From assembly GCA_020431995.1 (NCBI GenBank), contig JAGQHE010000097.1, forward strand, positions 1 through 20,331: a DNA stretch of 20,331 bases. Direction: 5' to 3'. Every line of letters starts with the position of its first letter. Within the stretch, counting starts at the first letter, position 1. Positions 1,179 to 18,157 of this stretch are shown one piece after another. A program made the position numbers and the translations under genes. The stretch comes from Nitrosopumilus sp. Its GTDB lineage: Archaea > Thermoproteota > Nitrososphaeria > Nitrososphaerales > Nitrosopumilaceae. The notes under the pieces are model-generated. The model was not told where the DNA came from, ran no database searches, and saw nothing but the letters and a program-made list of their open reading frames with translations.

Positions 1179-1460
1179 TCATTCATTTTGGGTTTTTGCC
1201 AGAGAAATTTCCGCGGCATGAGTTTGCATTATGAAGAGTGTCCCTCAAACAATTACAACGTGCAAGACAATTCAGTTGCATGAACCCATTTCTCTAGGAT
1301 CAAGAATCTGGCATGGCCAAGCAAAGATTGAGACTTGATCATGCAATCATGTGCAGTAGCTACTCTTTTGGATGCCGGATCAACACCCGTATCCGTCAAT
1401 CTCTTTAGAATCAGATATTAGAGTCAAATATGTGCGGTTATTGCGTACCACGGTGATTTG

Positions 1461-2270
1461 ATGAGAAGGATCTTTTACATTATAATTCCCACAGCTGCAT
1501 TTGCCCTAGTTTTATCAAATGCCTTATTTGGTGAGATTCTTTTTGACTCTTCTTATGATCAGGACATCAACAAGTATTCCGTATACGTCCACCTGCAGCA
1601 AGACTGGAGGAACTCGGGAAACATTCTGTTTGATGTTACAAATGTTTGGTCAGACCAAAAATCCAAATCCAACAGGACATATTCCTCTGACGAGCCGTCA
1701 GACATCACATTACTTTCCAATTACAATTCAAACCAGCTGCAGTACCAGCACGGAAAATCATTTGTAGAGCTAAAGCACGATTTCAGTAACTGCGATTCAA
1801 GCTGGAAGCCAATATCATATCGCTACATAGTTGACATCATACGCAGCAAGATTGATTTGATTCAAGGGACAAAGATGAACGATGATCCTTACGTGTCAGT
1901 ATTTCCCAACAGCATGAATTTCAACTATGACGCTAAAAAACAAACAGAATATGCAAAGCAAGGATACGTCCAATTCATTCCAATTTGCACGGATAATGAA
2001 ACCACTTCCTATGAATACTCGGTTTCAGTGAATGACAAGAGCATTGGGTTTGATGTCTACTTTGTGCCTTCAGAAGAAGAGATGACAAATTACCTGAAAG
2101 GCGATTCCTTTGGATTCTATCCCCAAGACGGATGCCATGCCCAGAACTATCACAGCTTTAGCGGAATTTGCAAAAACGTCGGAAAGGGTTCAGGCTTGCT
2201 GATAATGCTACCAGATGATCTAGAGTTGGCTTTGACAAAAGTTCGGATCAGCCTTCATGAGAAGATTTAG
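1461..2270 (+). CDS. Secreted or membrane-anchored hypothetical protein
   Basis: The track ORF 1458..2270 begins with TTG, and an ATG follows at 1461. The N-terminus MRRIFYIIIPTAAFALVLSNALFG is signal-peptide-like. The rest is Cys-containing and hydrophilic with no recognisable catalytic motif. Confidence 0.55.
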   Translation: MRRIFYIIIPTAAFALVLSNALFGEILFDSSYDQDINKYSVYVHLQQDWRNSGNILFDVTNVWSDQKSKSNRTYSSDEPSDITLLSNYNSNQLQYQHGKSFVELKHDFSNCDSSWKPISYRYIVDIIRSKIDLIQGTKMNDDPYVSVFPNSMNFNYDAKKQTEYAKQGYVQFIPICTDNETTSYEYSVSVNDKSIGFDVYFVPSEEEMTNYLKGDSFGFYPQDGCHAQNYHSFSGICKNVGKGSGLLIMLPDDLELALTKVRISLHEKI

Positions 2271-2356
2271 AACAGTCTGTTTCTGGCGGAGCACTCAGAT
2301 TCCGGAAATCTTAGGTCATGAGGGTTTTCTAACCTCAGAAAGTTTCATGGTCGAAT

Positions 2357-2920
2357 CTATGATTCGCATCCAATCCCATCTTTGTCCCCATCAAATCTGT
2401 GCGGATCAGGTGGAATGACTTTGAATTTTTTGTATGGCACGTCTTTGCAATCCAAATCCGGAGGGTATGGTGGAATGCACACGTCAGGATAAGACGGATC
2501 GCAGTCATCCGTAGTTTGTTCATTCTGGACTGGTTCTGATTTTTGCGATATACCACATCCGTACTTCTGAGCCCATAAGTCATCAGAGAATTCGCTAGAC
2601 GAGCAATATTGCGGCAAAATGCTTGCATGCCCGTTATAGAGCAATTCTGAATTCAGATTCTTGCCGTTGCAATACACTTTTCCCAAGAGCCTGCCATATT
2701 TGTCGTATCGCTGCTTGTCGTCTTGATCAATAGTGATGACGGATCCAACTGGGCAGAGCCTTTTTGTAAATTCCGTAGAATCTAAGAATCCTGCCTCATT
2801 TTTTTCAGGAGTGTTTGTCAGAGACAGCCTTATCTTGTACCCTTCGACGTAAATGGTGTCACCATCAACGATTCTTTCAACCCTTGCAAGGATGCACAGA
2901 CCATTTCCCAAACAAGGCAT
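2357..2920 (-). CDS. Staphylococcal-nuclease (SNase/thermonuclease) fold nuclease with a C-terminal Excalibur Ca-binding domain
   Basis: SNase motifs are present: RVERIVDGDTIYV, IRLSLTNTPE, DKYGRLLGKVY..NLNSELLYNGHA. The C-terminus CDPSYPDVCIPPYPPDLDCKDVPYKKFKV..PDPHRFDGDKDGIGCES carries the Excalibur DxDxDGxxCE signature. The reading frame stays open upstream of the annotated Met through a second IPSW..NNADWW..SDEDFVKGIQYL repeat, so the true N-terminus is probably the 2953..3261 segment (see finding). Confidence 0.8.
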   Translation of the reverse strand: MPCLGNGLCILARVERIVDGDTIYVEGYKIRLSLTNTPEKNEAGFLDSTEFTKRLCPVGSVITIDQDDKQRYDKYGRLLGKVYCNGKNLNSELLYNGHASILPQYCSSSEFSDDLWAQKYGCGISQKSEPVQNEQTTDDCDPSYPDVCIPPYPPDLDCKDVPYKKFKVIPPDPHRFDGDKDGIGCES

Positions 2921-2952
2921 GCCATTTTGCGATACATGGATAATTCCATTAT

Positions 2953-3261
2953 TTACAAGGTATTGGATTCCCTTGACAAAGTCTTCATCAGATAAAAGCC
3001 CATGACTCCACCAGTCGGCATTGTTTCTAAGCCATGATGGGATGTGCTCTGAAGCATCATATGTTGTGCCCGTAGGAGCATATGTAGAGTTCCCTTTTGT
3101 AGGAGGTATTGCAGTCCCTTGACAAAGTCTGTGTCAGAGATCTGAGAGGTAGACCACCATTTTGCGTTGTTTTTTACCCAGTCAGGGATTTCATGGGTCA
3201 ATCCAAACGAATTCATCGGGAAAAACAAGAGAATCACAAACAAAACAACAGCCCATTTCAT
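2953..3261 (-). CDS. Signal peptide plus first 'IPDWVKNNAKWW..SDxDFVKGLQYL' repeat; probable detached N-terminus of the SNase gene
   Basis: The ORF starts MKWAVVLFVILLFFPMNSFG (signal peptide), followed by IPDWVKNNAKWWSTSQISDTDFVKGLQYLLQKG. After about nt 3090 this frame becomes implausible (TLHMLLRAQHMMLQSTSHHGLETM). The -1 frame over the same bases reads STYAPTGTTYDASEHIPSWLRNNADWWSHGLLSDEDFVKGIQYLVNNGIIHVSQNGMPCLGNG and runs straight into ORF 2357..2920. Confidence 0.6.
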   Translation of the reverse strand: MKWAVVLFVILLFFPMNSFGLTHEIPDWVKNNAKWWSTSQISDTDFVKGLQYLLQKGTLHMLLRAQHMMLQSTSHHGLETMPTGGVMGFYLMKTLSRESNTL

Positions 3262-3458
3262 TCATAGAATACAAGCATGTTTTTTGTTATAACATTTTTC
3301 CAAGCCAATTCAGGGTCAATTCTTGACAAATTCATTGTTTTGTGTCAGAATTGTTGTTTCCATGCAGATGTATTTACCGACATGCTACAAAGTCAGACAA
3401 AACCGCAGACCTCAATTTTCTAGATCAAGCTTATTTATCACGAGAACCATACAGATAC

Positions 3459-3872
3459 ATGGCCGAGACTAATGAGTCAGAAAATATTTTTACAGAATGC
3501 AAGAAGAATACCGAGAGATTTTTCAACGAGATTGACAAGTCCTCGCCGGTTTACCATCAGATAGCAACCGACATTCAGAGAAGCTATCTTGACGCATGGA
3601 AGAACGTGATCGAATCATCCATTGCCTTGCAACAAGAATATGCTGCCAAGACAGGCCTGAATGTAAGCATGCCGGAAGAAACCATGAAAGAAATCCACAG
3701 CATAATGGAGAAAGCATCCAAGGCATACCAAAATCAAAACAAGTTTGTCTTCGATTCCACTGAGACATCAAAAAAAATATTTGACATATTCAGTGAAAAC
3801 ACCAAGATATTCAGCTCGCTGAACAAAAACATGATTGATCTGATGACATCCAGCATGAAAAAACGCGCCTGA
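3459..3872 (+). CDS. Hypothetical all-helical protein (phasin-like impression only)
   Basis: The track ORF is 3342..3872. The first ATG is at 3459 (MAETNESENIF...), and the upstream part of the ORF (SELLFPCRCIYRH) looks non-coding. The sequence is helical and K/E/S-rich with no catalytic motif. The phasin resemblance is only compositional. Confidence 0.5.
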   Translation: MAETNESENIFTECKKNTERFFNEIDKSSPVYHQIATDIQRSYLDAWKNVIESSIALQQEYAAKTGLNVSMPEETMKEIHSIMEKASKAYQNQNKFVFDSTETSKKIFDIFSENTKIFSSLNKNMIDLMTSSMKKRA

Positions 3873-4250: not shown

Positions 4251-4385
4251 ATGAGCAAACAGATCACAAACAGACACATTCAAAGTAAAAACGAGGAAGA
4301 GATATCAAGAAACATTCAGTATTTTGAGGTGTATAGAAAAATGGTCAGCCAGATGGCAAAGAATTCTGAAAAAGAGTACGCCTGA
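4251..4385 (+). CDS. Possible 44-aa small protein
   Basis: An ATG at 4251 opens MSKQITNRHIQSKNEEEISRNIQYFEVYRKMVSQMAKNSEKEYA, ending at TGA 4383-4385. The stop lies inside an 8-bp hairpin (CCTGAATG 4381-4388 / CATTCAGG 4401-4408). The ORF is below the track size cut-off and has no homology support. Confidence 0.2.
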   Translation: MSKQITNRHIQSKNEEEISRNIQYFEVYRKMVSQMAKNSEKEYA

Positions 4386-5167
4386 ATGTAGAACAATGGC
4401 CATTCAGGATCGTGCAGCTTGCGTACAAGCGCATTCCGCCGTTTCCATTTAGAACCATGCTGTTTTCCCATCAGGATTTGAGACATGTTATACAATGACA
4501 GGACTTCAAGCCTGTGAAGGGAACAGCCTTCTACAGGATTCTTGAAGGATTGCAGTTTGTGCACGATTCAGGTATTTATCCATACCATGTTCCAGATCCA
4601 TATCAGACGAGACAGGAATTAAGAAGACATTCTTGTGCACTGATTGCCACTGGTTTTAGGTTTCCCCTCTGCCATCATCATTTGCCTGGCAATACTGATC
4701 TTTACAGCGTTGGAAAATAAGACATTGTGGTTAAACGTGTAGTTGATTCTTGTGTCTCAGAAATGCTTGTTTGGTTTTCTGAAATCAGTTATTTCTGATT
4801 TTTACGTATCAAACATGACAAAAACTGTTAGACAGACTGTCAGACGTATAATTCTCTACTTTTCTACATCCAAAATCCGTATGCATGCACCACTCTTCGC
4901 AAAACCTGTTATGCTTGCGTAGAGTCTACTTTGCCTCACCTTTTTCCGTAGAAGAATTGTAAAACAGGCATAGAAAAACTCACACATCATGCACAATAGG
5001 TTAGAATACTATGAATATCGCAATTTGATCTTTTTCTTGAATTGAAGTATTTTGTTTGGTAACAAACATTTCTCATTAAATTTTGTAATATTTAATAATT
5101 TATGAAAGTATTATGACAGCAAGTCATTACAAAAGTGTTTTAAACCGCAAGCAACAAACTATCATGA

Positions 5168-7560: not shown

Positions 7561-8117
7561 AATCACGCCCGTCTACATCCGTTTTCATCTCCAAAATGGT
7601 GGGACCCACGTGTGACATCCTAACGTAAGTGGCGCCAACATGTACAGAGACAGGATCATGGAACGCCTAATAGCACGTAACTGGATGCAGTACCGGCAGA
7701 AGTCTCATTTTAAAAACAGATCACATGATCTACAGACACATCAAAGAAAATCAGAGATGTCCGAGCACAAGATCAAACACCATATCAATTGCAGGATTAT
7801 ATGAGATTGTTCAGAGGGTGGTTTTATTTCACAGTCACTGGTCTTTCCAGTCACATCTTTTCCAATGTTCTGGTTATCACCGTCGTTTTAATTCTAATTT
7901 TTATTTTTTCAGCCCTAAAGGATTTCAAAAACTAATTTTTTGGCTCAATCTCCACAGTAAATGTTTGAACAGCAATCTTTCCATCGCTCATAACAAATGT
8001 GTCAGTTCCTAGTGGAAAACAAAAATTTGATTTGTGTGTACATTTGGAAGCGCATCTGCTGAAATTCCAAAAATTGCCACTAAAAAAACTGTGATTAGTT
8101 TGGCAGTACTTTTTTGT

Positions 8118-8306
8118 TCAAACATTTTTTTGTACTACCAAACATTGATCACAGATTGCGCCATAATCTTCTTCAACTAATGTAACTGGCACGTTGCTGC
8201 TAAAGCATCTGTGACACATACCACGTAGCCTTACTCGTTCAAAAGACAGGGAGGGAAAGGCATCTCTTCCCCTCCTTGAAGGTTGAATCGATGTTCTTTG
8301 ACTCAT
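8118..8306 (-). CDS. Small Cys-containing (CxxC...CxxC) protein, translationally coupled to the upstream ORF
   Basis: The internal ATG at 8306-8304 overlaps the TGA (8305-8303) of ORF 8303..8524 as ATGA. The protein contains CHRC...CDQC. Confidence 0.45.
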   Translation of the reverse strand: MSQRTSIQPSRRGRDAFPSLSFERVRLRGMCHRCFSSNVPVTLVEEDYGAICDQCLVVQKNV

Positions 8307-8524
8307 GCCAGCGCCGCTATTGCGTGACAAAGTGTCTCACCGCACATGCAATCACTGTGAAATTTGGCTTCGGTTGTAGCAGCACATTCTGAACAGATCA
8401 TCTGCACAGATTGGCGGCATTGCGGACATTTCTCACATGTTTGCAGGTCTCCTCCACACCGTCTGCACAAAGTGTCTGGCATTTTGTATCGCCTCATGGA
8501 AAGTTGCGTCTTCCGATTCTCCAT
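8303..8524 (-). CDS. Cys-rich multi-zinc-ribbon protein
   Basis: The 73-aa ORF reads CRRCGGDLQTCEKCPQCRQSVQMICSECAA...CMCGETLC, with four closely spaced Cys pairs. It lies on the same strand as hsp20 and downstream of it (108-nt gap, 8525-8632). Confidence 0.5.
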   Translation of the reverse strand: MENRKTQLSMRRYKMPDTLCRRCGGDLQTCEKCPQCRQSVQMICSECAATTEAKFHSDCMCGETLCHAIAALA

Positions 8525-8632
8525 TTGATTATAGCTTCTTCTGGAAGTGAGGAAATTTTTTCAAATGAAGTTCTGACAGTGTCTCTTATTTTTGAGATGG
8601 ATGAACAATCCTTCATCGTTTTCACCTCTTGC

Positions 8633-9139
8633 CTATTCTACTGACACAACTCTTCCTTTTGGCTTGTCTTCTGTAAGCTTGAAGGTCAGTTCCAGTATTC
8701 CGTTTGTGTACTTTGCTTTTGCGGAGTTTTCATCGATCTTGTACTTGATTGGCACATGTGCCTCGTATTTCCTGTTTTCATTTTTGGTCTTGATTGTTAC
8801 AGCCTTTTCCTCAATTGACACATCAATGTCTGATTTTTCAATACCTGGCATTTCTGCTACCAGTTTGAGTGTGTTGTTTTCGCTATCAAGTACTTCATCT
8901 ACATATGGTTCCTTGACATCTGAAGAGGACGCAGGAAGTAGATTTCTGGGCCTGACATTGCCATACTCCTTGACAACAGGTTTTCCATCAGGTCCAACAG
9001 TCATTGTATAGCCATAATAATAGGGACCTACTGTCTGGTTTCTGTTTCCAAACCAGTTGTTTTCAAAGATGTCGTCCCAGTTAAAAAAGCGGTCAGACAT
9101 TCTTCGAAACTCTCTATCAAAGGGTTCATCAAACCACAT
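8633..9139 (-). CDS. hsp20: Small heat-shock protein, Hsp20/alpha-crystallin family
   Basis: An alpha-crystallin domain is present: LKLVAEMPGIEKSDIDVSIEEKAVTIKTK...YEAHVPIKYKIDENSAKAKYTNGILELTFKL. The gene is divergent from the thermosome gene. Confidence 0.9.
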   Translation of the reverse strand: MWFDEPFDREFRRMSDRFFNWDDIFENNWFGNRNQTVGPYYYGYTMTVGPDGKPVVKEYGNVRPRNLLPASSSDVKEPYVDEVLDSENNTLKLVAEMPGIEKSDIDVSIEEKAVTIKTKNENRKYEAHVPIKYKIDENSAKAKYTNGILELTFKLTEDKPKGRVVSVE

Positions 9140-9157
9140 TCATTTATCACCGAGTAT

Positions 9158-9240
9158 ATGTAATAGATGTGACAAAATATAAAGATTTTGCACATATTAT
9201 CTATAATTGACTAGATGTAATATATATGACAAAATTAAAA
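9158..9240. promoter_or_regulatory. Two 26-nt direct repeats in the divergent hsp20/thermosome promoter region
   Basis: 9158-9183 reads ATGTAATAGATGTGACAAAATATAAA and 9215-9240 reads ATGTAATATATATGACAAAATTAAAA, matching at about 22 of 26 positions. Each repeat ends in an A/T-rich TATA-like segment. Confidence 0.35.
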
Positions 9241-9275
9241 TTATGGAATTGTAATTAATTGGATTTGGTGATTTA

Positions 9276-10916
9276 TTGTCACAGCAACATATACCCGTGG
9301 TTCTTCTAAAGGAAGGATCCACTGAAACAAAAGGGCACGATGCCCAGAAAAACAATATCCAAGCCGCAAAGCTGGTGGCCGAACTGGTCAAGACAAGCCT
9401 AGGTCCGCGAGGAATGGACAAGATGATTGTTGATTCCCTAGGGGATGTAACCATAACAAATGATGGTGCTACAATCCTCAAGGAGATCGACGTCCAGCAT
9501 CCAGCCGCAAAGATGATGGTCGAGATCTCAAAGACTACAGATAACGAGGTAGGAGATGGTACCACATCTACTGTGATTCTGGCAGGTTCTCTGTTAGACA
9601 AAGCACAGGAGCTAACAGAGAAGAACGTTCATCCCACGATAGTGGTAAACGGTTTTAAAAAAGCAGCTGACAAGGGATTGGAAATTCTAAGAAGCGTAGC
9701 AGTCAAGGTTGACCCAGAAGACAAGGCATTTCTGAAAAAGATAGCAAAGACAACAATGGAGTCCAAGATCACGACATCCGATTCCAAGATGCTCTCCGAA
9801 GTAGTTGTGGAAGCCATTCTTGCAGTAAGTGAAAAGCAGAACGGCAAGACAAAGGTTGACATTGGCAACATCAAAGTCGAGAAGAAGGCAGGAGGCTCCA
9901 TGAAGTCAACAGAACTGGTTCAAGGAATTATCTTGGACAAGGAAATTGTTCACGGTGCAATGCCAAAACAGATCAAGACAGCAAAGATTGCACTTGTAAA
10001 CTGCCCATTGGAGATTGAGAAGACAGAGTTTGATGCCAAAATCAACATCAACTCTCCTGATCAAATGCAGCAGTTCATAGACGAGGAGAACAGGATGCTC
10101 AAAAAACTTGTGGATCAGGTTGCAGCGTCTGGTGCAAATGTTCTGCTGTGTCAGAAGGGAATAGACGACATGGCACAGCATTATCTTACGAAGGTTGGAA
10201 TCATGGCAGTAAGAAGAATAAAAGAAAGCGACATGATCAAGCTTTCAAAGGCAACAGGTGCCAGAATAATTACGAACATTGCTGAGCTTACAAAAGAGGA
10301 TCTTGGTGCTGCAGAGATTGCAGAAGAGAGAGAGGTTGAGACCGACAAGTGGGTGTTCATCGAGGGATGCAAGAACCCAAAAGCCGTAAGCATTCTTGTC
10401 AGGGGAGGTTCTCAGAGGATAGTAGACGAGGTGGACCGCTCCATCCATGATGCCTTGATGGCAGTAAAGGATGTTGTCACAAACCCGCATGCGCTGGTTG
10501 GCGCAGGCGCTCCCGAGGCATTCGTTGCAAACAAGCTAAGGGACTGGTCAAATTCGCTAGAGGGACGCTCTCAACTTGCAGCCCAGAAATTCGCAGATGC
10601 CATAGAGAACATGGCAGTGATCTTGGCTGAAAGCGCAGGGATGGATCCGCTTGATGCGCAAGTTCAGTTAAGACAAAAGGCAACTGACGGCAGGGCAGTA
10701 TATGGTATTGATGTCGAGAATGCAATGGTTGCAGACATGTCAAAAAGCGACATCTATGATCCGTTGGCCGTAAAAGAGCAGGTAATCAATGGCGCAACGG
10801 AGGTTGCATGCATGATTCTTAGAATCGATGATGTCATAGCAGGAAGCAAAAGCATGGCCCCATCAGGTCCTCCAGGAGAAAGGATGGGCGGAATGCCTCC
10901 AGGAATGGATATGTAA
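9276..10916 (+). CDS. ths: Thermosome subunit (group II chaperonin)
   Basis: 546 aa with a TTG start. Canonical motifs are present: [25 protein letters not shown], plus a [10 protein letters not shown]-terminal tail. Confidence 0.97.
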
Positions 10917-10960
10917 TTCCATTTTCTTTTTTATTTTTACCACAAGTCAAAATGCAGGGA

Positions 10961-11120
10961 CATTTCCTCACATGGCATGCTCTTGACAAACCATGAGTCT
11001 AAAGACAACATGAGGGATGGATCAGGGTATCTTTGAGGATGATTTTAGAATTCTTTACCGAAATGGAATGATCATCCTTTTAGAAATTTTATGTAGTGGC
11101 TCATTTGTTCTTTGAGTCAT
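10961..11120 (-). pseudogene. cas1: Heavily degraded second copy of the Cas1 N-terminal region
   Basis: The minus strand from the ATG at 11120 aligns in three shifting frames with the 15172 copy. MTQRTNE / HYIKFLKG* / KNSKIILKDTL / DSWFVKSMPCEEM corresponds to MTLKNQKNHYNVKLLQGYG...KNSKIVLKNGL...EEWFVKNMPYEKI. A 23-nt core matches at 22 of 23 positions (10972-10994 vs 15013-15035). The relic contains in-frame stops and indels. Confidence 0.55.
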
Positions 11121-11192
11121 TTTTGAAATTAAAAGATGGACAAAAGTATGGGAATGCTTTTTAGGTTATCATTCAGAATTTTTAGATGTATT

Positions 11193-11254
11193 CAAGAAGC
11201 AGGTTCACATGATTCTTGACTCTTGGGTCAAACAAGAGATCGTCCTGCTTCTTG
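11193..11254. repeat. 62-nt nested inverted repeat (long imperfect hairpin)
   Basis: The outer arms CAAGAAGCAGG (11193-11203) and CCTGCTTCTTG (11244-11254) are perfect complements. The inner palindrome TTGAC-TCTTGG-GTCAA sits at the centre. Confidence 0.6.
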
Positions 11255-11402
11255 ATTGTATATTAAATCATTTATGATTAAAAAGGGATACGTAGAATTT
11301 GTTAGTCTTTCAGTCATCAATTCATAATGATTTTAAAATGACCCTGAACTTTCTCCAACAAATCATAACTTACGTAATTGTCTGGCATGGCAAACTCAGG
11401 AA

Positions 11403-11429
11403 CAAAAACGGTGATGCCATTTTTACTCT
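11403..11429 (-). repeat. Distal copy of the aEF-2 3'-terminal sequence (att/TSD-like direct repeat)
   Basis: The minus strand reads AGAGTAAAAATGG-CATCACCGTTTTTG. Its first 13 nt are identical to the aEF-2 end (15971-15959), and the next ~15 nt resemble the sequence that follows it there (TATGCCCCCGTTTTG). Confidence 0.45.
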
Positions 11430-11539
11430 GCCGATTAAAATGCAGAGTCGTCTTCACAGGCACAAAAAACGCAACATAACTAGTGCAATGATGTGGGTTT
11501 GTTTGTTGAAGATTTTTTAAAAAGGGATAACGCATCAAA

Positions 11540-12034
11540 ATGTTATTGGCAAAATTAGAAAATTATGAACTCTCAGATTCACAAATAAAAAACGGATTAA
11601 AGAAAGCTCTCCTAGGGTCTATCGAACTGTCTGGATATGCAAAGTATATTCTTGAACGAAACGGAAACACTACATTATCTTTAGGGTTGTATTCCTTTGC
11701 AATTGGAGAATATGGCAAGTATGAGATTCTCAGGGAATTTCTTTCAGAATCTGTAAAAAGACACCACATACCAAAAGTAATTTTTGATGTAAAAAATTTC
11801 AAGATTAATTTTAAAAAAGCGTTGGATACGTTGCCTAGGAGCATAACTGAGAATCTTTCGAATGATCTGTCATTGGACTTGCAATCCAAAATGAGTTATT
11901 TCAATCTAACATGGGATCAAGAAAAAGAAAAATGGAATGCTCCTCCAAAAATTGATTCATCTCTACTGTCAGAGTCATTGATTTCATTTGAAAAACATGT
12001 TTCTGTGAAACTAGATTCTGAATATGACAGTTAA
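11540..12034 (+). CDS. Hypothetical protein, AbiV-like (abortive-infection family) impression
   Basis: 164-aa ORF preceded by an A/T-rich TATA-like box about 23 nt upstream, which suggests a leaderless transcript. The N-terminal helix pair IKNGLKKALLGSIELSGYAKYILE...LSLGLYSFAIGEYGKYEILREF resembles the AbiV hallmark (A..L..A..L....A.EE.GK...L). This is recalled from memory of the family and not verified. Confidence 0.45.
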   Translation: MLLAKLENYELSDSQIKNGLKKALLGSIELSGYAKYILERNGNTTLSLGLYSFAIGEYGKYEILREFLSESVKRHHIPKVIFDVKNFKINFKKALDTLPRSITENLSNDLSLDLQSKMSYFNLTWDQEKEKWNAPPKIDSSLLSESLISFEKHVSVKLDSEYDS

Positions 12035-12209
12035 AGAACAGCAGGATCATTACAACGTGAAAAGACTACGGTCATTCTGAACATGTAAAAAATTCACAAA
12101 AACTAAAATCAGACCACAATCCTTTCTCTAATCAACTACAAAGCATTGGTTGTCAATGTTATTTGTATTCGAAAAGTATTGGATATGCTGGGTTTATCTC
12201 ATTTATTTA

Positions 12210-12503
12210 TCAAAAGTGGATCCACGTTACAAACAGAAAAGAAGATACGTATCCAAATTCCACCCAAATGAACAGTCGACATCCAACAGCACTCCTAGTA
12301 CCACATCTAGATCCTATTGTAAATTTCCACCCATAAGAATCAGGAGCATTGACATTATCAGGTCTAAGACTTGTAGGCCAAGTAAAACAATATCTCCCTC
12401 CTCCACACTTACTAGCAAGTTTGAAAAAATCTGGAGATAAAATACCGACTGTACTTGTACCGTGTTTCTTTATCATCTTTGTCAATGAAATAGAAATTTT
12501 CAT
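12210..12503 (-). CDS. Hypothetical protein (uncertain gene)
   Basis: The 97-aa ORF has protein-like composition (GGGRYCFTWPTSLRPDNVNAPDSYGWKFTIGS). The overlapping + strand ORF 12150..12440 is S/T/R-rich and looks like a shadow ORF. I recognise no family. Confidence 0.3.
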   Translation of the reverse strand: MKISISLTKMIKKHGTSTVGILSPDFFKLASKCGGGRYCFTWPTSLRPDNVNAPDSYGWKFTIGSRCGTRSAVGCRLFIWVEFGYVSSFLFVTWIHF

Positions 12504-12994
12504 TTTTGAGGATTTGTAGAGATCATTAGTTAGAACAAACGGGCGATTCTTAGTGATGAATCCTCAAATGAAGATATTTGAGATGATTACTTTGGCAAAC
12601 TTTTCTCAATCCTTTCAACAAGTTCTTTACTTCTTTAGACACAAATCTCACTAGCGATGTGAATTAAATTTAATGTGTCTAACACATACTCTGCAAATTT
12701 TTGCAAAGATTGTATGTTGTTCTTTGTAAGTTGTTTGTTATCTGACTAGAATTATTTAAATATTTGAAAAAAAATAAATAGCAATTTAAATTCTCAAAGA
12801 TTTGAAAGTTCTTTTTATACTAATCAATGGTAGTCAAAAACTTTCCATTAACAAAACGTCAGGTGTTTTACATGTTTTTCTAATGTATTTATTCTCTTTT
12901 TTGCTGAACTAGATCATTTTCTAATTTTGTGATTCTATCGTGTTGTTCTTTATTTTTATTGCATCTACAGAAATATCAAGTTGATTTATAGCTA

Positions 12995-14422
12995 CTAAGT
13001 CCCTGGAATTTGATCAACATATCGTGTTTCTGCGGATAACACAATATCATAAGCATCGCCATTTTCAAAACTATCAATCGACAACGATATCATGCCATTA
13101 CTAACTGGCAACGTTTGGATTTCAGTAATTACATTGCTAGCAGATGCAGGATTTGGAATACGCATGATATCTGCTTGTATTGTGTTTGCATCATAAGGAT
13201 AATTTTGAATGTTTATCACAACGTTATTTTGATTGCGGTCATAATTACCTACAAGTAGATGAATTTTTTCTGTTTGGTCATTTTTACTTGCTAGTGAAAT
13301 TATGTGGGACCCTAAGCTTTCTGTAAAAATTCTATTCTTATCTAATTCAGCATATGCCTTATATACAAAATAGATGTTCTCGGGGGTTTTATTGTCTTGG
13401 TCAAGCATTCCATTTAATCCATTCCAGCAATTACTCCATACAGACGATCCAGATCCCATGTCCCAGCATGCACGATTTGCAACATCTACATTTGCTTTTT
13501 CAAGTGAGTATAGCCATCGCACAGCCCATCCTGGGACAGACTGATTGTCATTTGAACCATATTCATTGATATGTATCTCTTGAATCTTCAAATTCTGTTT
13601 TTTTTCAAAAGTACTATCTATTATGAAACGCATTTTTTTCACATGTTCGAGCATCGCATCAGGATCATCAAATTCATGCCAAGACAATGCAGTTAGTTCA
13701 AGATTGTTTTCTTCAATATATCTTATAAAATTAGTTAGATGTTGTTCGTCAAATTGATTTGTGCTTGGTGCAACTATTTTAGCATTAGGCACGTGTTTTT
13801 TTATTATATCATGTGTTATTTTAACAATCTCAAATTTTTGGGATTCAGTAAAGCCGTTGAAAATACCATCCGGCTCATTATATACATCATAATAATCTAT
13901 GTGGATTTTATTCTGTACAGTTTTGATCATAAGATCTTCCATAAAATATTCCCAAATAGTTTTAAATTGTTCAAATGATTGAATACAAGTTTTATTAGAT
14001 GAATCACATTCAGATTCTAAATCAAGAGAGTACTGATTATTACTCACCCCATAAACTGAGAAAAACAAATCAGACAGTACAAAAGTGATTTGTGTGTCGT
14101 GCTTTGATCTAACATTGTCATTTACAAAATTATAGATTGGAATAGTACTCATTCTCCATGATTTTGGTTCTAACTGTGAAACAGAATCCAATATTTCATT
14201 TTGGTTGATGATGTCCGGCAAACCATGAATAAACCCTGATTTTAATTTGACTTTGTCAATATTTTCTCCAGCATCAACAATGACAGACGGCATCATACCT
14301 GTGTTGATTAACTTGTTTATGCCGACAGCATCTTGAATTTTATCAGACGAATTTACAGACGTTATGCCAAGAATTAACAATAAGATTACAGATGCGCTTG
14401 TTGCAATGAAAATTTTTTTCAA
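12995..14422 (-). CDS. Secreted glycoside hydrolase, clan GH-A TIM-barrel type (GH39/GH30/GH5-like) with a C-terminal beta-sandwich
   Basis: A signal peptide is present (MKKIFIATSASVILLLILGITSVNS). YYDVYNEPDG matches the clan GH-A 'NEP' acid/base motif. IQEIHINEYGSN is a candidate nucleophile strand, and LSWHEFDD lies between them. The gene is very AT-rich. Confidence 0.6.
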   Translation of the reverse strand: MKKIFIATSASVILLLILGITSVNSSDKIQDAVGINKLINTGMMPSVIVDAGENIDKVKLKSGFIHGLPDIINQNEILDSVSQLEPKSWRMSTIPIYNFVNDNVRSKHDTQITFVLSDLFFSVYGVSNNQYSLDLESECDSSNKTCIQSFEQFKTIWEYFMEDLMIKTVQNKIHIDYYDVYNEPDGIFNGFTESQKFEIVKITHDIIKKHVPNAKIVAPSTNQFDEQHLTNFIRYIEENNLELTALSWHEFDDPDAMLEHVKKMRFIIDSTFEKKQNLKIQEIHINEYGSNDNQSVPGWAVRWLYSLEKANVDVANRACWDMGSGSSVWSNCWNGLNGMLDQDNKTPENIYFVYKAYAELDKNRIFTESLGSHIISLASKNDQTEKIHLLVGNYDRNQNNVVINIQNYPYDANTIQADIMRIPNPASASNVITEIQTLPVSNGMISLSIDSFENGDAYDIVLSAETRYVDQIPGT

Positions 14423-14567
14423 CTATGCGGTTTCAAGCAAACATTCTATCTAAACTTGACGTTAAGCGTAGGCAAATAATCAAGTCACAAGAGAATAAAA
14501 TACATAATCAAGCCATACACGAATTCAAATCTTCTAATCATCACTGCAAATTACTGGTATGCTGGAA

Positions 14568-14812
14568 TTATGATTCGCATCCAATACCGTCTTTATCCCC
14601 ATCAAACCTATGTTGGTCTGGAAGAAGCACTCTGAATTTTTTGCATGGCACATCTTTGCAATCTAAGTCAGGAGGATAAGGTGGGATGCATACATCAGGA
14701 TAAGAAGGATCGCAGTTTTCTGTACTTTGTGTAGTTTTTGGAGCAGACGGGGTAGTCTGAGAAGTTTTAGTTGTGATTGTTGCTTCGCAGATATAATCTG
14801 CTTTTGTAGGTA
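14568..14812 (-). pseudogene. 3' stump of an Excalibur-domain gene, paralogous to the C-terminus of the SNase gene at 2357-2560
   Basis: The +1 frame relative to the Cas1 ORF reads ADYICEATITTKTSQTTPSAPKTTQSTENCDPSYPDVCIPPYPPDLDCKDVPCKKFRVLLPDQHRFDGDKDGIGCES*, with its stop at 14570-14568. It is nearly identical in protein sequence and clearly similar in DNA to 2357-2490. An in-frame stop lies just upstream and there is no start codon. Confidence 0.8.
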
Positions 14813-15172
14813 TTCACATTTCTCAGGATTTCTAAACGTGTCATATTGCGCTATGCGGTATTTTGTGGCAGTTAGTGAATCCATCACGCCATTTAGAAAT
14901 GATATTGGTTTCCCAAAAGTGTCAGTCAAGACAAGATTACGGTTGTTTTGATTTAGTAGAGATAATGCTTCAATGGAAACATATCCTTTTCCAGATAACA
15001 CTATCTTCTCATATGGCATGTTCTTGACAAACCATTCTTCTTTTTCTTGTTCTCCTGTTACATCATGTAAGCCGTTCTTTAGAACGATTTTGGAATTTTT
15101 AAGAGAAATTGAAACTCCGTATCCTTGGAGAAGTTTTACGTTGTAATGATTTTTCTGATTTTTTAAAGTCAA
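14663..15172 (-). pseudogene. cas1: Truncated Cas1 (casposase-like): N-terminal domain and first helix only, about 127 aa
   Basis: The Cas1 N-terminal architecture is present. Beta strands: YNVKLLQGYGVSISLKNSKIVLKNG. The central segment is EKIVLSGKGYVSIEALSLLNQNNRNLVLTDTFGKPISFLNG. The helical domain then opens with TATKYRIAQYDTFRNPEKCEYLQKQIISAK, as in ..R.AQ....d.e.rl.iAk.ii.aKi.NQ. After that the ORF degenerates into a read-through of the Excalibur stump in the wrong frame. The catalytic helical domain is absent. The start is TTG. Confidence 0.7.
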
Positions 15173-15183
15173 TCTGTCTAGAA

Positions 15184-15621
15184 TTAAGAATTTTCAGATG
15201 TTGAAAATGTGTAAGACATAGGTGGAGTTATAGATTGAACATAAGGAGAATCTAAAATTTCTTCCAATATGGAATATGTGTTAATTACTGCAAAATAGAT
15301 ATGCGCCCACCGTGCTTGATTGAAGGGTTTGTCTTTTTCAAACTTGAATGTGTATCCATCTAGAGTAATCTCTTTTGAGGATTTTGTATGAATTCCATTA
15401 GAATGGAGGCAATTTCTAACATATGCAAGAAGATTCAAGATATCTCTTTTTTCATCAGAATTTTGGATTTGTAAAACTGACAGTAGTTTTGTTACTATGT
15501 CGTAATATTGTCTAGGTACATTTTCATCCATACTGGACAAAAGTATTTTGAATAAAGTTTCTATTTGAAACTGAAAATTAGTAATAAATGAAATACGACG
15601 AATGTCATTTTCAACCATCAT
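15184..15621 (-). CDS. C-terminal part of a hypothetical protein with a possible HEPN-like RNxxH motif; probably one gene with 15677..15880
   Basis: The frame stays open upstream of the Met (IKKIINEEQARKLLSNDLGDFHGS-MMVEND...) up to the A8 tract. The sequence is all-helical and contains LLAYVRNCLHSNGIH. The R-to-H spacing is one residue shorter than the canonical HEPN Rx4-6H motif, so the HEPN assignment is weak. Confidence 0.5.
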   Translation of the reverse strand: MMVENDIRRISFITNFQFQIETLFKILLSSMDENVPRQYYDIVTKLLSVLQIQNSDEKRDILNLLAYVRNCLHSNGIHTKSSKEITLDGYTFKFEKDKPFNQARWAHIYFAVINTYSILEEILDSPYVQSITPPMSYTFSTSENS

Positions 15622-15676
15622 AGATCCGTGAAAATCCCCTAGATCGTTACTTAGTAATTTTCGTGCTTGTTCTTCA

Positions 15677-15880
15677 TTAATGATTTTTTTTATCTAATGA
15701 TTCTAGTAAACTCATGTGCATTACTGATGACATACAAAGATGGCAACAACCGTTTAGAATGATATATCTTCCATCATTATCTGGATATCCATATTTTGTT
15801 AATAAGTTAAGAAACTTATTTCTCAATTCTAAAAATTGTTTTTTGTCCTCACTTAATGTAGGAGTGTCATTGAATGGCAA
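15677..15880 (-). CDS. N-terminal part of the same hypothetical protein, ending in the A8 tract
   Basis: The ORF has a TTG start and ends ...LLESLDKKNH*. The stop is created by the reading frame through the homopolymer at 15684-15691 (T8 on the + strand). With seven A instead of eight it reads ...SLDKKIINEEQARKLL... into ORF 15184..15621. Confidence 0.45.
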   Translation of the reverse strand: MPFNDTPTLSEDKKQFLELRNKFLNLLTKYGYPDNDGRYIILNGCCHLCMSSVMHMSLLESLDKKNH

Positions 15881-15942
15881 TACCGTTTTACTTTGAATTA
15901 AATAATTTCTTAAGCTTTACGACAAGCGTCATGTTTTTGTGC

Positions 15943-15971
15943 CCAAAACGGGGGCATACCATTTTTACTCT
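15943..15971 (-). repeat. aEF-2 3' terminus plus adjacent sequence (proximal att/TSD-like repeat)
   Basis: The minus strand reads AGAGTAAAAATGG-TATGCCCCCGTTTTGGGC and includes the last codon and a half and the TAA stop of aEF-2. It is repeated at 11429-11403. A degenerate third copy (CAAAGTAAAACGGTATTGCC) lies at 15897-15878. Confidence 0.5.
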
Positions 15972-18157
15972 TTGTCGATGAACTCGTTGACGCCTGGAGG
16001 GTCTGGCGCAAGCCCTTTTCTTTTCCTAATGTCCGCTACTGCGGATGCCAGCATTGACTTTGGGACCTCTGTCCATTCCTTAAAGGAGGTGTTCCATGTC
16101 GCACGTCCTGCGGTCTGGCCCCTCATCTCCTCAGACAATGTGAACGTCTCAGAGGCAGGAATCTCGCCTACAATGATGCTTGATGCGCCCTTTTGCTGCA
16201 TGTCTAATACCTTGCCACGCTTGCCAGAAAGAACAGTTGCCACGTTTCCGACCAGGTCAGTTGGGACACGTACCTCGATTGCTAGCGTAGGCTCCAGGAC
16301 TGCTGTACCTGCAGTAAGCAACGCGCCCATACATGCCCTGCGTGAGGCGGGTCCAAGCTGTGACAGTCCCCTGTGTGCAGTGTCCTCATGAGGAACAAAG
16401 TGAGTAAATATGAACTTGCAGTTTCTCATCTGCTCCTTGCACAGAGGCCCTTCTTTCATTACTTCTTCAAACCCGGAATTGATAGAGTCAGTTGACTCTT
16501 GTACAAACTGGACACCCTTTGTCCCATTGATCAGTACGTTTCCACGCGAGTCAAACTTCATGACCCTCTTGATAGTATCAGTATCCCATCCAGCCTCTTT
16601 TAGCAAGTCAGCTACAACTTTTTTGTCCTTCATGTCGCTGATTTCGCCGGTCCTAAGCATGTGGGCAATCTTTGGCTCCAGTGGCTCCACCTTCATGAAA
16701 ATCTTGTTGTGCCTGTTAGGGGATTTTGCCATGACTGGTTCGCATGTACCCTTGACAGTCTCCCTGTAGTTAATCAAAGGTTCGGAAGTCACAATCTCAC
16801 ATTTTGCATCCTGGATTCTGTGCGTTGCAACATCAAGGTGCAACACGCCCATCCCGGCAACGATTGTCTCTCCACTTTCCTCATCTATCTTTACAATGAG
16901 GTTTGGATCCTCAATGGTAAGCTGCTTTAGGATTTCTACGAGCTTTGGCAGGTCTTTAGGATGCTTTGGCTCGATGGCGATTTGAACGACAGGTTCTGAG
17001 ACATACTTTACGCCTTCAAACATAGGGATGCCTTTGACTGACGACAATGTGTTTCCGGCTCTTGCCTCTGTCAGCCCTAGCAGTGCAGGGATGTTTCCAG
17101 CCCCCAGCTCTCCTACCTGCTCTCTCTGGTTGCCCATAAAGAAATTGACTGACTGTATTCTTCCTTCCCTTTTGGAATCAATTATGTTTATTGTCTGGCC
17201 GTCTTTGACGACTCCGGAGAACAGCCTGCCAATTGCGACAGGCCCTGCTGCAGGATCCAACACCATGTTCACAATCATCATGATTGTCGGGCCGTCATCA
17301 CTGCATGCAAGAAGTGCCTTTCCAATGTCAGACTCCAAGTCACCCTTCCAGATTTGAGGTATTCTATACTTTACCGCCTCAGGTGGAGAGGGATGATGCT
17401 TTACGACCATCCCAAGTACTGCGTCAGCCAAAGGTGCCTTTTCAACCAAGACATCGACTTTTTCGTTGACATAGGCGTCAATCACATCCTTGAATGTGAT
17501 TCCTTTCTCCTTCATCAAATCCACGTTTATTGCCCATTTGTCTTTTGCAGAACCAAACGTCACGCTTGCGTTCTGAATTGACACTTTCCATTTTTCTTTG
17601 TACTCTGGCTCTGCATAGGTGTCAATTAGTTGGTTAAAGTTGGAAACTACTTCTGCTAGCTGTTGCTGCATTTTTTCAGGAGTCAGTCTGAGCTCCTTGA
17701 TCAGCCTGTCAACCTTGTTGATAAACAAGACAGGCTTTACTCTCTCCTCAAGTGCCATCCTGGTCACGGTCTCAGTTTGAGTCATAATGCCTTCTACGGC
17801 ATCACATACAACTACGGCGCCGTCAATTGCCCTAAGGCTACGGATTACCCTTCCGCTAAAGTCCACGTGTCCGGGCGTGTCAATCATGTTAATGACGTAT
17901 TCCTGACCCTTTTGAGAAAAGAGCAGTGTTACGTTTGCCTGATAAATCGTAATCCCTCTTTGCTGTTCCTCTTTGTCAAAGTCCATTGCAAGAGCCTTTC
18001 CTGCAGCTGAGGGGGCAATAATTCCAGAGTTTGCCAAAAGGCTGTCACTCATTGTGGTTTTACCGTGGTCAACGTGCGCGATTACACCAAAGTTACGAAT
18101 GTTTGCCTTGTTCTTGATAATTTTCATAACCTCTGCTGTTGACTTGAATTTTGCCAT
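15965..18157 (-). CDS. fusA: Translation elongation factor 2 (aEF-2)
   Basis: 730 aa. GTPase motifs AHVDHGKTT, DTPGHVDF and NKVD are present, along with the diphthamide-region motif HEDTAHRG. Confidence 0.97.
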   Translation of the reverse strand: MAKFKSTAEVMKIIKNKANIRNFGVIAHVDHGKTTMSDSLLANSGIIAPSAAGKALAMDFDKEEQQRGITIYQANVTLLFSQKGQEYVINMIDTPGHVDFSGRVIRSLRAIDGAVVVCDAVEGIMTQTETVTRMALEERVKPVLFINKVDRLIKELRLTPEKMQQQLAEVVSNFNQLIDTYAEPEYKEKWKVSIQNASVTFGSAKDKWAINVDLMKEKGITFKDVIDAYVNEKVDVLVEKAPLADAVLGMVVKHHPSPPEAVKYRIPQIWKGDLESDIGKALLACSDDGPTIMMIVNMVLDPAAGPVAIGRLFSGVVKDGQTINIIDSKREGRIQSVNFFMGNQREQVGELGAGNIPALLGLTEARAGNTLSSVKGIPMFEGVKYVSEPVVQIAIEPKHPKDLPKLVEILKQLTIEDPNLIVKIDEESGETIVAGMGVLHLDVATHRIQDAKCEIVTSEPLINYRETVKGTCEPVMAKSPNRHNKIFMKVEPLEPKIAHMLRTGEISDMKDKKVVADLLKEAGWDTDTIKRVMKFDSRGNVLINGTKGVQFVQESTDSINSGFEEVMKEGPLCKEQMRNCKFIFTHFVPHEDTAHRGLSQLGPASRRACMGALLTAGTAVLEPTLAIEVRVPTDLVGNVATVLSGKRGKVLDMQQKGASSIIVGEIPASETFTLSEEMRGQTAGRATWNTSFKEWTEVPKSMLASAVADIRKRKGLAPDPPGVNEFIDKE

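What the first reader, a model, noticed from the sequence alone, without database searches (positions are those of the whole stretch)
10961..11120. Second, heavily eroded Cas1 N-terminal relic abutting the thermosome 3' end
No ORF of 60 aa or more exists here, yet the minus strand aligns from its ATG (11120) with the 15172 Cas1 copy through several frame changes and stop codons. One 23-nt block matches at 22 of 23 positions (10972-10994 vs 15013-15035). This gives two Cas1 relics in direct orientation about 4 kb apart. That pattern points to repeated insertion at one hotspot, or tandem elements, followed by decay. An automated ORF-based annotation would miss this.
Basis: seen in the sequence. 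Interest (0 to 1): 0.75.

Follow-up and report, generated by a model that had tools for sequence, protein, structure and literature searches.

The report
Decayed casposon end near EF-2
This stretch is the eroded start of a Cas1-type integrase gene, still attached to the end of a dead self-replicating transposon (a casposon) that later insertions at the same hotspot behind the EF-2 gene pushed aside; it is real but of a known kind.

Summary
A DNA profile of the casposase 5' region from 54 other genomes matches the minus strand 11118-10962 (cas1 nt 3-167) at E=5.5e-19. With the conserved 33-nt block masked it still gives E=1.6e-11, and 500 shuffles reach at most 6.7 bits. Three frame-shifting gaps and several stop codons make it a pseudogene.

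It is the left end of a family-1 thaumarchaeal casposon. About 300 nt upstream lies a degenerate copy of the EF-2 target-site duplication (ATCGGCAGAGT, 11435-11425). This copy is flanked back-to-back by two terminal inverted repeats, the signature of a junction between tandem casposons (junction profile E=2e-5). The whole 500 bp aligns at 75% with the left end of a casposon in another Nitrosopumilus genome.

The relic is only 61% identical to the 15172 copy, which is background level. The two are therefore separate insertions, not a duplication. Its 3' end is a breakpoint against the native 3' flank of the thermosome gene.

A third relic lies inverted at 12024-12161. Extra cas1 5' stubs occur in 15 of 80 related loci. 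The EF-2 hotspot, tandem casposons and casposon remnants are all published, so this is a new example of a known kind.

The parts
10962..11120 (-). Relic B, the finding itself. It is the eroded 5' end of a casposase (Cas1) gene, gene nt 3-167, starting at the ATG at 11120. It carries three frame-shifting gaps, one 3-nt gap and in-frame stops.
   Evidence: nhmmer profile of 54 foreign cas1 5' regions: E=5.5e-19. Alignment shown. Masked and shuffled controls. Six-frame HMM hits. tblastn with intact casposases.
11121..11379 (-). Leader of the old casposon, between its terminal repeat and the cas1 start. It contains an 11-bp-stem hairpin (about 11190-11256) and the subterminal motif ACGTAAGTTATGATTTGTTGGAGA (11379-11351).
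   Evidence: Aligns with the L050 casposon leader: 75% over the whole left end (blastn E=4e-40). The motif recurs near casposon ends in L057, L019, L056 and at both ends of L015. Hairpin fold z=-3.1.
11380..11424 (-). Left terminal inverted repeat of the old casposon (TIR-L'): AAAAATGGCATCACCGTTTTTGTTCC...
   Evidence: Direct copy of the repeat that follows the EF-2 stop (D18, 37, 39). TSD+TIR profile from 22 other loci: second-best hit in the window, E=0.007.
11425..11435 (-). Degenerate second copy of the target-site duplication (TSD'): ATCGGCAGAGT. The EF-2 copy reads ATCGACAAAGAGT. The second copy differs by one substitution and a 2-nt deletion.
   Evidence: Junction profile spans it, E=2.1e-5.
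11436..11478 (+). Distal terminal inverted repeat (TIR-R) of the EF-2-proximal element, read inward: TAAAATGCAGAGTCGTCTTCACAGGCACAAAAAACGC. It is in register with TIR-L: AAAATG at positions 2-7 and GGCACAAAAA at positions 24-33.
   Evidence: 10-nt exact inverted match. The register was read directly from the sequence. Junction profile hit 11465-11402 covers model positions 16-82.
15967..15979 (-). Primary target-site duplication: the last EF-2 codons plus the T of the stop codon (ATCGACAAAGAGT).
   Evidence: Exact match. Corresponds to the N. koreensis TSD ATTGATAAAGAGT (PMC8464041). Profile E=1e-12.
15912..15966 (-). Left terminal inverted repeat of the EF-2-proximal element: AAAAATGGTATGCCCCCGTTTTGGGCACAAAAACATGACGCTTGTCGTAAAGCTT.
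   Evidence: Conserved after the EF-2 stop in 22 loci. Shown to be a TIR by the inverted copies in L013, L021 and L029.
14757..15172 (-). Relic A: cas1 nt 1-413 with the reading frame still open. It is part of the 169-aa ORF 14663-15172.
   Evidence: Pfam Cas_Cas1 E=3e-10. nhmmer E=9e-97.
12024..12161 (+). Relic C2: a third cas1 5' stub (nt 2-151), inverted relative to A and B and heavily eroded. A TIR-like AAAAATGGAATGCTCC lies 96 nt upstream, at 11928-11945.
   Evidence: nhmmer E=3.8e-8. tblastx and HMM hits. TIR profile rank 3, E=1.9.
10917..10957 (+). Native 3' flank of the thermosome gene (T-rich). The casposon relic is joined directly to it.
   Evidence: Homology with the thermosome loci L166 and L167, which carry no cas1 5' relic or TIR at that spot, runs to window 10953-10957.
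15965..18157 (-). EF-2 gene, whose 3' end is the integration hotspot.
   Evidence: 730-aa ORF. 62-93% identical to EF-2 genes that adjoin casposons in more than 20 loci.

Best explanation
The segment 10962-11120 is a dead fragment: the first ~55 codons of the integrase (casposase, a Cas1 homologue) of a family-1 thaumarchaeal casposon. It belongs to a ~480-bp surviving left end (11435-10958) made of a target-site duplication, the left terminal inverted repeat, a leader and the start of cas1.

Proposed history (inferred from the anatomy and from published casposase biochemistry):
1. A casposon integrated at the EF-2 stop codon, duplicating the 13-bp target.
2. A deletion removed everything beyond cas1 nt ~170 and joined the stub to the 3' flank of a thermosome gene.
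3. One or more further casposons integrated at the regenerated EF-2-proximal copy of the target. This displaced the stub 4.5 kb from EF-2.
4. These later elements decayed in turn, leaving relic A, the inverted relic C2 and no polymerase gene.
5. The displaced target copy has since lost 2 nt and is predicted to be unusable.

The relic itself most likely has no present function.
For: Shown:
- Homology of the relic to casposase genes is far beyond chance.
- Frame-shifting gaps and stops are present.
- TSD' and TIR-L' lie upstream.
- The back-to-back TIR-R/TSD'/TIR-L' junction matches a profile of nine tandem junctions from other genomes, E=2.1e-5.
- The whole left end aligns with L050 at 361/480 = 75%.
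- B against A is 97/158 = 61%, equal to B's median against all lineages. B's best matches are 76% (L008) and 73% (L028, L024).
- The layout EF-2 -> TSD -> TIR-L -> cas1 is the canonical one in more than 15 loci.
- The layout EF-2 - casposon - TSD - TIR-L - cas1 stub recurs in L013, L021, L029 (N. devanaterra) and L041.
- The relic ends where homology to casposon-free thermosome loci begins.

From the literature:
- EF-2 as target and tandem casposons (PMC4046053, PMC6563490).
- The 13-bp TSD and its key positions (PMC8464041).

Consistent with polarity: the EF-2-proximal relic A keeps an open frame over 138 codons, whereas the distal relic B is shattered.
Against: - No right end (TIR-R plus TSD) of the old element is found. 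A candidate at 10941-10962 turned out to be native thermosome flank.
- The order of insertions is inferred, not observed. Relic C2, which lies between A and B, is as decayed as B, so decay does not rank cleanly with distance from EF-2.
- The B region is not covered by an independent assembly. Only A (L003-L007) and C2 (L168) are.
- No empty site from a close relative was available.
Confidence: 0.85

Rival explanations
1. Local segmental duplication. The left end of the element that carries relic A was copied 4 kb away by recombination or replication slippage, without a second transposition, and then decayed.
For: The orientation is direct. The first ~27 nt of the terminal repeat are more alike between the two window copies (85%) than between the window and most other loci.
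Against: B against A is 61% in cas1, which is background level, while B is 73-76% to other lineages. The 300-nt leader of B is unrelated to the 790-nt leader of A but homologous to that of L050. The junction has the TIR-R/TSD/TIR-L form produced by integration.
Confidence: 0.03
2. The stub was integrated as a stub. A truncated casposon end, for example an aborted protein-primed replication product, was inserted by the casposase, which tolerates non-TIR ends in vitro. In that case the relic never was a full element at this site.
For: - The N. koreensis casposase integrates substrates from 7 nt to ~4 kb and does not need the TIR motif (PMC8464041).
- Stubs in 15 of 80 loci all start at the TIR-L end and stop at variable points, nt 42-243.
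- Among the cas1 fragments listed, I counted about 13 secondary 5'-only copies against 4 secondary 3'-only copies.
Against: - The loci were retrieved with N-terminal peptide patterns, so 5' stubs are over-sampled.
- No target-site duplication follows stub B. It abuts native thermosome flank, as expected of a deletion.
- Terminal retention after internal deletion explains the bias more simply. PolB C-terminal fragments also occur.
Confidence: 0.05
3. Assembly chimera. The metagenomic contig wrongly joins a thermosome locus to a casposon array at a short shared word.
For: The window appears to be a metagenome-assembled contig: NCBI names the identical Cas1 fragment 'MAG... [Nitrosopumilus sp.]' and its longest carrying contig is 20335 nt. 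The B region has no independent contig. The breakpoint lies about 15 nt from the most conserved cas1 block.
Against: Exact matches between B and A are at most 14 nt, too short for k-mer joins. The A and C2 regions are reproduced in five and one independent assemblies respectively. Decayed stubs of the same kind occur in complete genomes (L029).
Confidence: 0.04
4. Chance or compositional similarity in AT-rich intergenic DNA, with one lucky 23-nt block.
For: The region is AT-rich, and the repeat finder lists many weak two-copy matches.
Against: E=5.5e-19 against a profile that contains no window sequence. E=1.6e-11 with the block masked. Shuffle maximum 6.7 bits against 61.2 observed. The pieces are collinear and start at the gene's ATG.
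Confidence: 0.005

Closest known systems
Tandem family-1 casposons at the ef-2 gene of Ca. Nitrosopumilus adriaticus NF5 (NitNF5-C1/C2; PMC6563490)
   Same: Same host family, same target (3' end of EF-2), same re-use of the regenerated target-site duplication, and same TIR/TSD junction between neighbouring elements.
   Different: In NF5 both elements are reported as complete. Here every element is decayed. Only cas1 5' stubs remain, there is no polymerase gene between EF-2 and the thermosome gene, and one stub is inverted.
Inactivated tandem copies and solo-TIR remnants of family-2 casposons in Methanosarcina (PMC4779613); remnant of a second casposon in M. psychrophilus (PMC4046053)
   Same: Decay products of casposons left at a re-used integration site. 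The terminal sequences outlive the interior.
   Different: Different casposon family, host phylum and target (tRNA-Leu or intergenic). The remnant here keeps a recognisable piece of the integrase gene in addition to the TIR.
NitAR1-C1 of Ca. Nitrosopumilus koreensis AR1 and its casposase (PMC8464041)
   Same: The 13-bp TSD covers the last EF-2 codons: ATTGATAAAGAGT there and ATCGACAAAGAGT here. The experimentally critical A1, A11 and T13 are conserved.
   Different: That element is intact and its integrase is active in vitro. The relic's TSD' has lost 2 nt and its integrase gene is destroyed.
Tn7 islands at attTn7 downstream of glmS
   Same: Site-specific insertion just past an essential gene, repeated use of the site, and accumulation of inactivated copies. 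The casposon literature itself draws this analogy (PMC4046053).
   Different: Unrelated transposase and targeting machinery.

Membership tests
Family-1 (thaumarchaeal) casposon | Encodes a Cas1-family casposase of the compact family-1 type | tested here: met
   Homology of 10962-11120 to family-1 casposase genes: E=5.5e-19 at the DNA level, and protein pieces matched by 19 of 37 intact casposases. Only nt 3-167 survive, so this is a remnant and not a working gene.
Family-1 (thaumarchaeal) casposon | Terminal inverted repeats at both ends | tested here: inconclusive
   The left repeat is present at 11424-11380. No right repeat of this element was found; the candidate at 10941-10962 is native thermosome flank.
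Family-1 (thaumarchaeal) casposon | Flanked by a target-site duplication | tested here: inconclusive
   The left TSD' ATCGGCAGAGT is present at 11435-11425. No copy lies beyond the stub.
Family-1 (thaumarchaeal) casposon | [quoted passage not shown] | tested here: not met
   The PolB HMM finds nothing in 10917-15966. A PolB fragment lies at 4370-4717(+) (E=1.3e-5), 6 kb away on the far side of the thermosome block, and its affiliation is uncertain.
Family-1 (thaumarchaeal) casposon | Integration at the 3' end of the EF-2 gene (usual but not universal) | tested here: met
   The array starts at the EF-2 stop codon. The same layout is seen in more than 15 related loci.
CRISPR-Cas adaptation module (Cas1-Cas2 with an array) | CRISPR repeat array and cas2 or other cas genes nearby | tested here: not met
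   No repeat array in the window. Pfam scans of 20 ORFs, including all those of 90 aa or more between the thermosome and EF-2 genes, give no Cas family other than the Cas1 fragment itself. The closest relatives are casposases next to pPolB genes.
Solo-TIR type casposon remnant (as defined for Methanosarcina) | Only one TIR remains, next to the target motif, with no casposon genes | tested here: not met
   The remnant keeps the TIR, a 300-nt leader and 160 nt of cas1. It is therefore a larger 'left-end stub' rather than a solo TIR.

The most novel reading that the evidence does not exclude
The EF-2 hotspot may act as a polarised, CRISPR-like ledger. On this reading, new DNA always enters at the gene-proximal copy of the 13-bp duplication, older entries are pushed outward, and many entries are short left-end stubs (TIR plus 40-240 nt of cas1). 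These stubs would have been integrated as truncated replication products rather than whittled down afterwards. That would be a natural intermediate between casposon transposition and spacer acquisition.
Probability: 0.06. Interest if true: 0.75.

Novelty: new member of a known kind. Interest (0 to 1): 0.3.

Why it matters
For annotation: ORF-based pipelines miss such stubs. They also label the neighbouring 169-aa fragment 'CRISPR-associated endonuclease Cas1', although it is a truncated transposon integrase.

For biology: the relic, its degenerate target copy and the two other stubs show that this EF-2 site was used at least three times and that casposons here turn over and decay quickly. Across related genomes, 15 of 80 loci carry extra cas1 5' stubs. 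The EF-2 hotspot is therefore a readable record of past casposon invasions in ammonia-oxidising archaea. It could be mined for insertion polarity and decay rates, which bear on how casposon integration relates to CRISPR spacer acquisition. None of this changes current understanding.

Tried and rejected
1. A right end of the old element (TSD'' TTGACTTGTGGT plus a TIR-R-like AAAATGCAGGGAC at 10941-10962) looked plausible from the repeat finder family D10. I rejected it because that sequence is the native thermosome 3' flank, shared with L166 and L167, which carry no cas1 5' relic or TIR at that spot.

2. I considered a giant old casposon running from relic B across the thermosome block to the PolB fragment at 4370-4717. 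No distal TIR/TSD was found on the left, so this is left as an unproven note.

3. I considered a fourth relic ('C1') at 11787-11946(+). It has a 27/32 match to cas1 A (I2), but the profile hits are non-collinear and not significant (E=0.23 and E=18). It is not claimed.

4. I considered that the relic's leader hairpin is under selection. The 23- and 19-nt identical runs with L050 are expected at 75% identity over 480 nt, and the motif is found only in L050. There is no evidence of selection.

5. The best 120 database homologues of Cas1 fragment A are all 238 aa or shorter, which suggested a domesticated short Cas1. Genome loci contain 47 full-length copies, and the tool scored only 238 word-sharing candidates. 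N. ureiphilus P0005 is simply a frameshifted casposase. I treat this as a sampling effect.

6. The metagenome scan with the thermosome protein found no EF-2 neighbour and no close orthologue (best 73%). No empty site could be recovered.

7. Exact-protein look-ups for the thermosome and for the 73-aa ORF found no further contig covering B.

8. Rfam and promoter/terminator scans of the region gave nothing above chance.

Full report
**Setting.** The window carries a thermosome gene (9276-10916, +) and, convergent with it, an EF-2 gene (18157-15965, -). The 5 kb between them holds a 169-aa ORF (14663-15172, -) that Pfam recognises as the first ~120 positions of Cas1 (E=3e-10). The rest of this interval consists of ORFs with no family. 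The finding concerns 10961-11120, just past the thermosome stop codon.

- No ORF of 60 aa or more overlaps the segment.
- The 23-nt block is 22/23, and extends to 29/33 and 26/28.
- Outside the block, the minus strand still aligns with the 15172 copy: score 26, against a shuffle mean of 12.0, sd 1.9, and none of 1000 shuffles as high.
- For independence from the window's own copy, I built a DNA profile from the first 420 nt of 54 casposase genes fetched from other genomes. It hits 15171-14757 (E=9e-97), 11118-10962 on the minus strand (gene nt 3-167, 61.2 bits, E=5.5e-19) and, unexpectedly, 12025-12161 on the plus strand (nt 2-151, E=3.8e-8).
- With the 33-nt block masked, the relic still scores 36.6 bits (E=1.6e-11). 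Five hundred dinucleotide shuffles of 10917-11299 never exceed 6.7 bits.
- The alignment has gaps of 2, 3, 2 and 1 nt. Translated pieces lie in two reading frames with stops between them: LKEQMSHYIKFLKG, HSISVKNSKIILKD and DSWFVKSMPCEEM.
- Nineteen of 37 intact casposases give tblastn hits below E=0.01 in the 401-nt region. One hit is 14/14 identical.

**What is it?** EF-2 is the published integration target of family-1 casposons of Thaumarchaeota (PMC4046053; PMC6563490). For Ca. N. koreensis, the target-site duplication was mapped experimentally to ATTGATAAAGAGT, the last EF-2 codons plus the T of the stop codon (PMC8464041). The window's EF-2 ends ATCGACAAAGAGT|AAAAATGGTATGCCCCC....

In 22 related loci the sequence after the EF-2 stop begins with the same AAAAAT(G/A)G..CCCCC motif. 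In loci with intact elements (L013, L021, L029 = Nitrosotalea devanaterra) this motif is the left terminal inverted repeat. An inverted copy closes the element 7-8 kb downstream and is followed by a second copy of the 13-bp duplication. In more than 15 loci the casposase gene starts 110-900 bp after the EF-2 stop and points away from EF-2.

**The relic has the same anatomy.**
- About 300 nt upstream of its ATG, on the minus strand, lies ATCGGCAGAGT|AAAAATGGCATCACCGTTTTTG (11435-11402). This is a degenerate copy of the duplication (one substitution and a 2-nt deletion) followed by a terminal repeat (D18, 36, 37).
- A profile of duplication plus repeat from 22 other loci ranks this as the second-best site in the window (E=0.007), after the EF-2 end itself (E=1e-12).
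- Immediately on the other side of the duplication, reading inward on the plus strand from 11436, is TAAAATGCAGAGTCGTCTTCACAGGCACAAAAAACGC. It shares AAAATG at positions 2-7 and GGCACAAAAA at positions 24-33 with the EF-2-proximal repeat, in exact register with the terminus.
- Two repeats back-to-back around a duplication is the signature of a junction between tandem elements. A profile of nine such junctions from other genomes hits 11465-11402 across all three parts (E=2.1e-5).
- The whole stretch 11445-10958 aligns end to end with the left end of a casposon in a Nitrosopumilus MAG (L050): duplication, repeat, leader and cas1 nt 1-170, 361/480 = 75%.

**Duplication or separate insertions?** Over the shared cas1 columns, the relic is 61% identical to the 15172 copy. 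That equals its median identity to all 54 lineages. Its best matches are 76% (L008) and 73% (L028, L024). Copy A is closest to L015 (77.5%). The leaders of the two copies are unrelated. The two relics therefore come from different casposon lineages that used the same site, not from a local duplication.

**Where does the relic end?** Homology between the window and two contigs carrying the orthologous thermosome (94% protein identity; L166, L167) runs to window position 10953-10957, and no cas1 5' relic or TIR is found at that spot in either contig. The cas1 similarity stops at 10962. The relic is thus joined directly to the thermosome's own T-rich 3' flank, as expected of a deletion breakpoint. 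I had read a possible third duplication and a right terminal repeat into 10941-10962. This comparison shows that sequence to be thermosome flank, so I withdraw that reading.

**Likely history (inferred).**
1. A casposon of the L050/L008-like lineage integrated at the EF-2 stop codon.
2. A deletion removed it from cas1 nt ~170 onward.
3. Further casposons integrated at the EF-2-proximal duplication and displaced the stub by 4.5 kb.
4. Those later elements decayed as well. Copy A keeps an open frame for 138 codons but is then fused to a fragment 81.5% identical to the 3' end of the SNase/Excalibur gene at 2357-2920. The inverted stub C2 is shattered. No polymerase gene remains in the interval.

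The displaced duplication is 11 nt instead of 13, so the distance measured by the casposase's ruler mechanism (PMC8464041) is altered. I predict that it can no longer be used, which would force new insertions to the EF-2 side. This prediction is untested.

**How common is this?** Among 80 loci with a family-1 cas1 5' region, 15 carry two or more copies. Several show the arrangement seen here, namely EF-2, an element, a duplication, a left repeat and a cas1 stub of 42-243 nt: L013, L021, L029, L041 and L050. Convergent and divergent pairs also occur. PolB C-terminal fragments recur too. Among the cas1 fragments listed, I counted about 13 secondary 5'-only copies against 4 secondary 3'-only copies. 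However, the loci were retrieved with N-terminal peptide patterns, so this excess is biased. A simple explanation, which is inference only, is that stubs form while the element adjoins the essential EF-2 gene. That neighbour limits how far deletions can extend on the EF-2 side. The stubs are then pushed outward by the next insertion.

**Comparison with what is known.** Tandem casposons at ef-2 are described for N. adriaticus NF5 (PMC6563490). Tandem pairs with one inactivated copy, and solo-TIR remnants, are described for Methanosarcina (PMC4779613). A deteriorating second casposon is described for M. psychrophilus (PMC4046053). The relic is a further case: a left-end stub, larger than a solo TIR and much smaller than an inactivated copy. 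As a casposon it fails the tests for a polymerase gene and a second terminus, so it is a remnant of a family-1 casposon and not a member in working order. It is not part of a CRISPR-Cas locus: there is no array and no other Cas family among the ORFs scanned with Pfam.

**Caveats.**
- The window appears to be a metagenome-assembled contig: the identical Cas1 fragment is named a Nitrosopumilus MAG protein and its longest carrying contig is 20335 nt.
- Independent assemblies reproduce the A region (five contigs) and the C2 region (one contig), but none covers B.
- No empty site from a close relative could be recovered.

**Verdict.** It is a new example of a known phenomenon. It has modest interest as an annotation trap and as part of a readable record of repeated casposon invasion at EF-2.

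Noticed in passing
window 12024-12161 (+), with 11928-11945 (+): A third cas1 5' relic (nt 2-151, nhmmer E=3.8e-8). It is inverted relative to the other two and 900 bp from relic B's start. A TIR-like AAAAATGGAATGCTCC lies 96 nt upstream. This implies at least three uses of the site, one in the opposite orientation.
   Followed up: partly
window 14559-14730 vs 2347-2519: The Cas1 fragment A is fused to a piece 81.5% identical (173 nt) to the 3' end of the SNase/Excalibur nuclease gene at 2357-2920. Homologues of that nuclease sit between the left TIR and cas1 in other loci (L013 12609-13205; L085 2456-3046), and near casposons in L024, L036, L064 and L081. It looks like a casposon-borne nuclease.
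   Followed up: partly
window 4370-4717 (+), and 1458-3872: A protein-primed PolB fragment (HMM positions 319-393, E=1.3e-5) lies on the far side of the thermosome block. It sits beside ORFs (270 aa, 176 aa, and the nuclease) whose homologues lie next to casposons in about 10 other loci. This is a second patch of casposon debris. The 6-kb block with the thermosome, sHSP, FMN reductase and EEP nuclease genes lies between it and relic B.
   Followed up: partly
window 8083-10957; L166, L167: The thermosome is a rare divergent paralogue: 94% identity in only two database clusters, then 84%, then 74% or less. The divergent sHSP-thermosome gene pair occurs in three different contexts. In L167 it lies 7 kb from a divergent family-1-like casposase (E=2e-47) and split PolB-like ORFs. 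It may be a mobile or cargo heat-shock module.
   Followed up: partly
L029 (Ca. Nitrosotalea devanaterra LN890280.1) 15880-16872: Downstream of the ef-2 casposon there is a 67-nt direct repeat (TSD plus left TIR, 99% identical) and a cas1 stub (nt 1-219, 81% to the intact gene). This is a decayed tandem partner. The 2019 survey text that I read describes only two casposons in different genes. The TIR is 99% identical while cas1 is only 81%, which is unexplained.
   Followed up: partly
L001 (ENA k141_7728050) 10001-10510 and 20183-20510: Two Cas1 ORFs called as 169 aa lie in convergent orientation 10 kb apart. Between them are transporter, methyltransferase, low-molecular-weight phosphatase, MIP-channel and Na/H-exchanger genes. 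This resembles a cargo block bounded by two casposon left ends.
   Followed up: no
window 11190-11256 (-) and L050 7949-8004: The leader of the old casposon has a hairpin with a perfect 11-bp outer stem (CAAGAAGCAGG/CCTGCTTCTTG); fold z=-3.1. The outer stem is shared with L050, while the inner stem differs but still pairs. With only two sequences, selection cannot be tested.
   Followed up: partly
window 11904-11935 (+) vs 15032-15063: A 27/32 inverted match to cas1 A (codons ~36-47) lies 90 nt upstream of relic C2's start, out of order for a single gene. It could be a fourth fragment, or chance in A-rich sequence. Unexplained.
   Followed up: partly
window 15873-15889 (-): AAAACGGTATTGCCATT, about 75 nt inside the EF-2-proximal element, is an imperfect inverted copy of the start of the terminal repeat, and also of 11405-11421. 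It could be a remnant of yet another terminus, or internal symmetry of the repeat.
   Followed up: no
one search hit list: All 120 best database homologues of the Cas1 fragment are 238 aa or shorter, although full-length casposases of similar identity exist in genomes (47 full-span copies). This is probably an effect of candidate selection and short contigs, not evidence for a domesticated short Cas1.
   Followed up: partly
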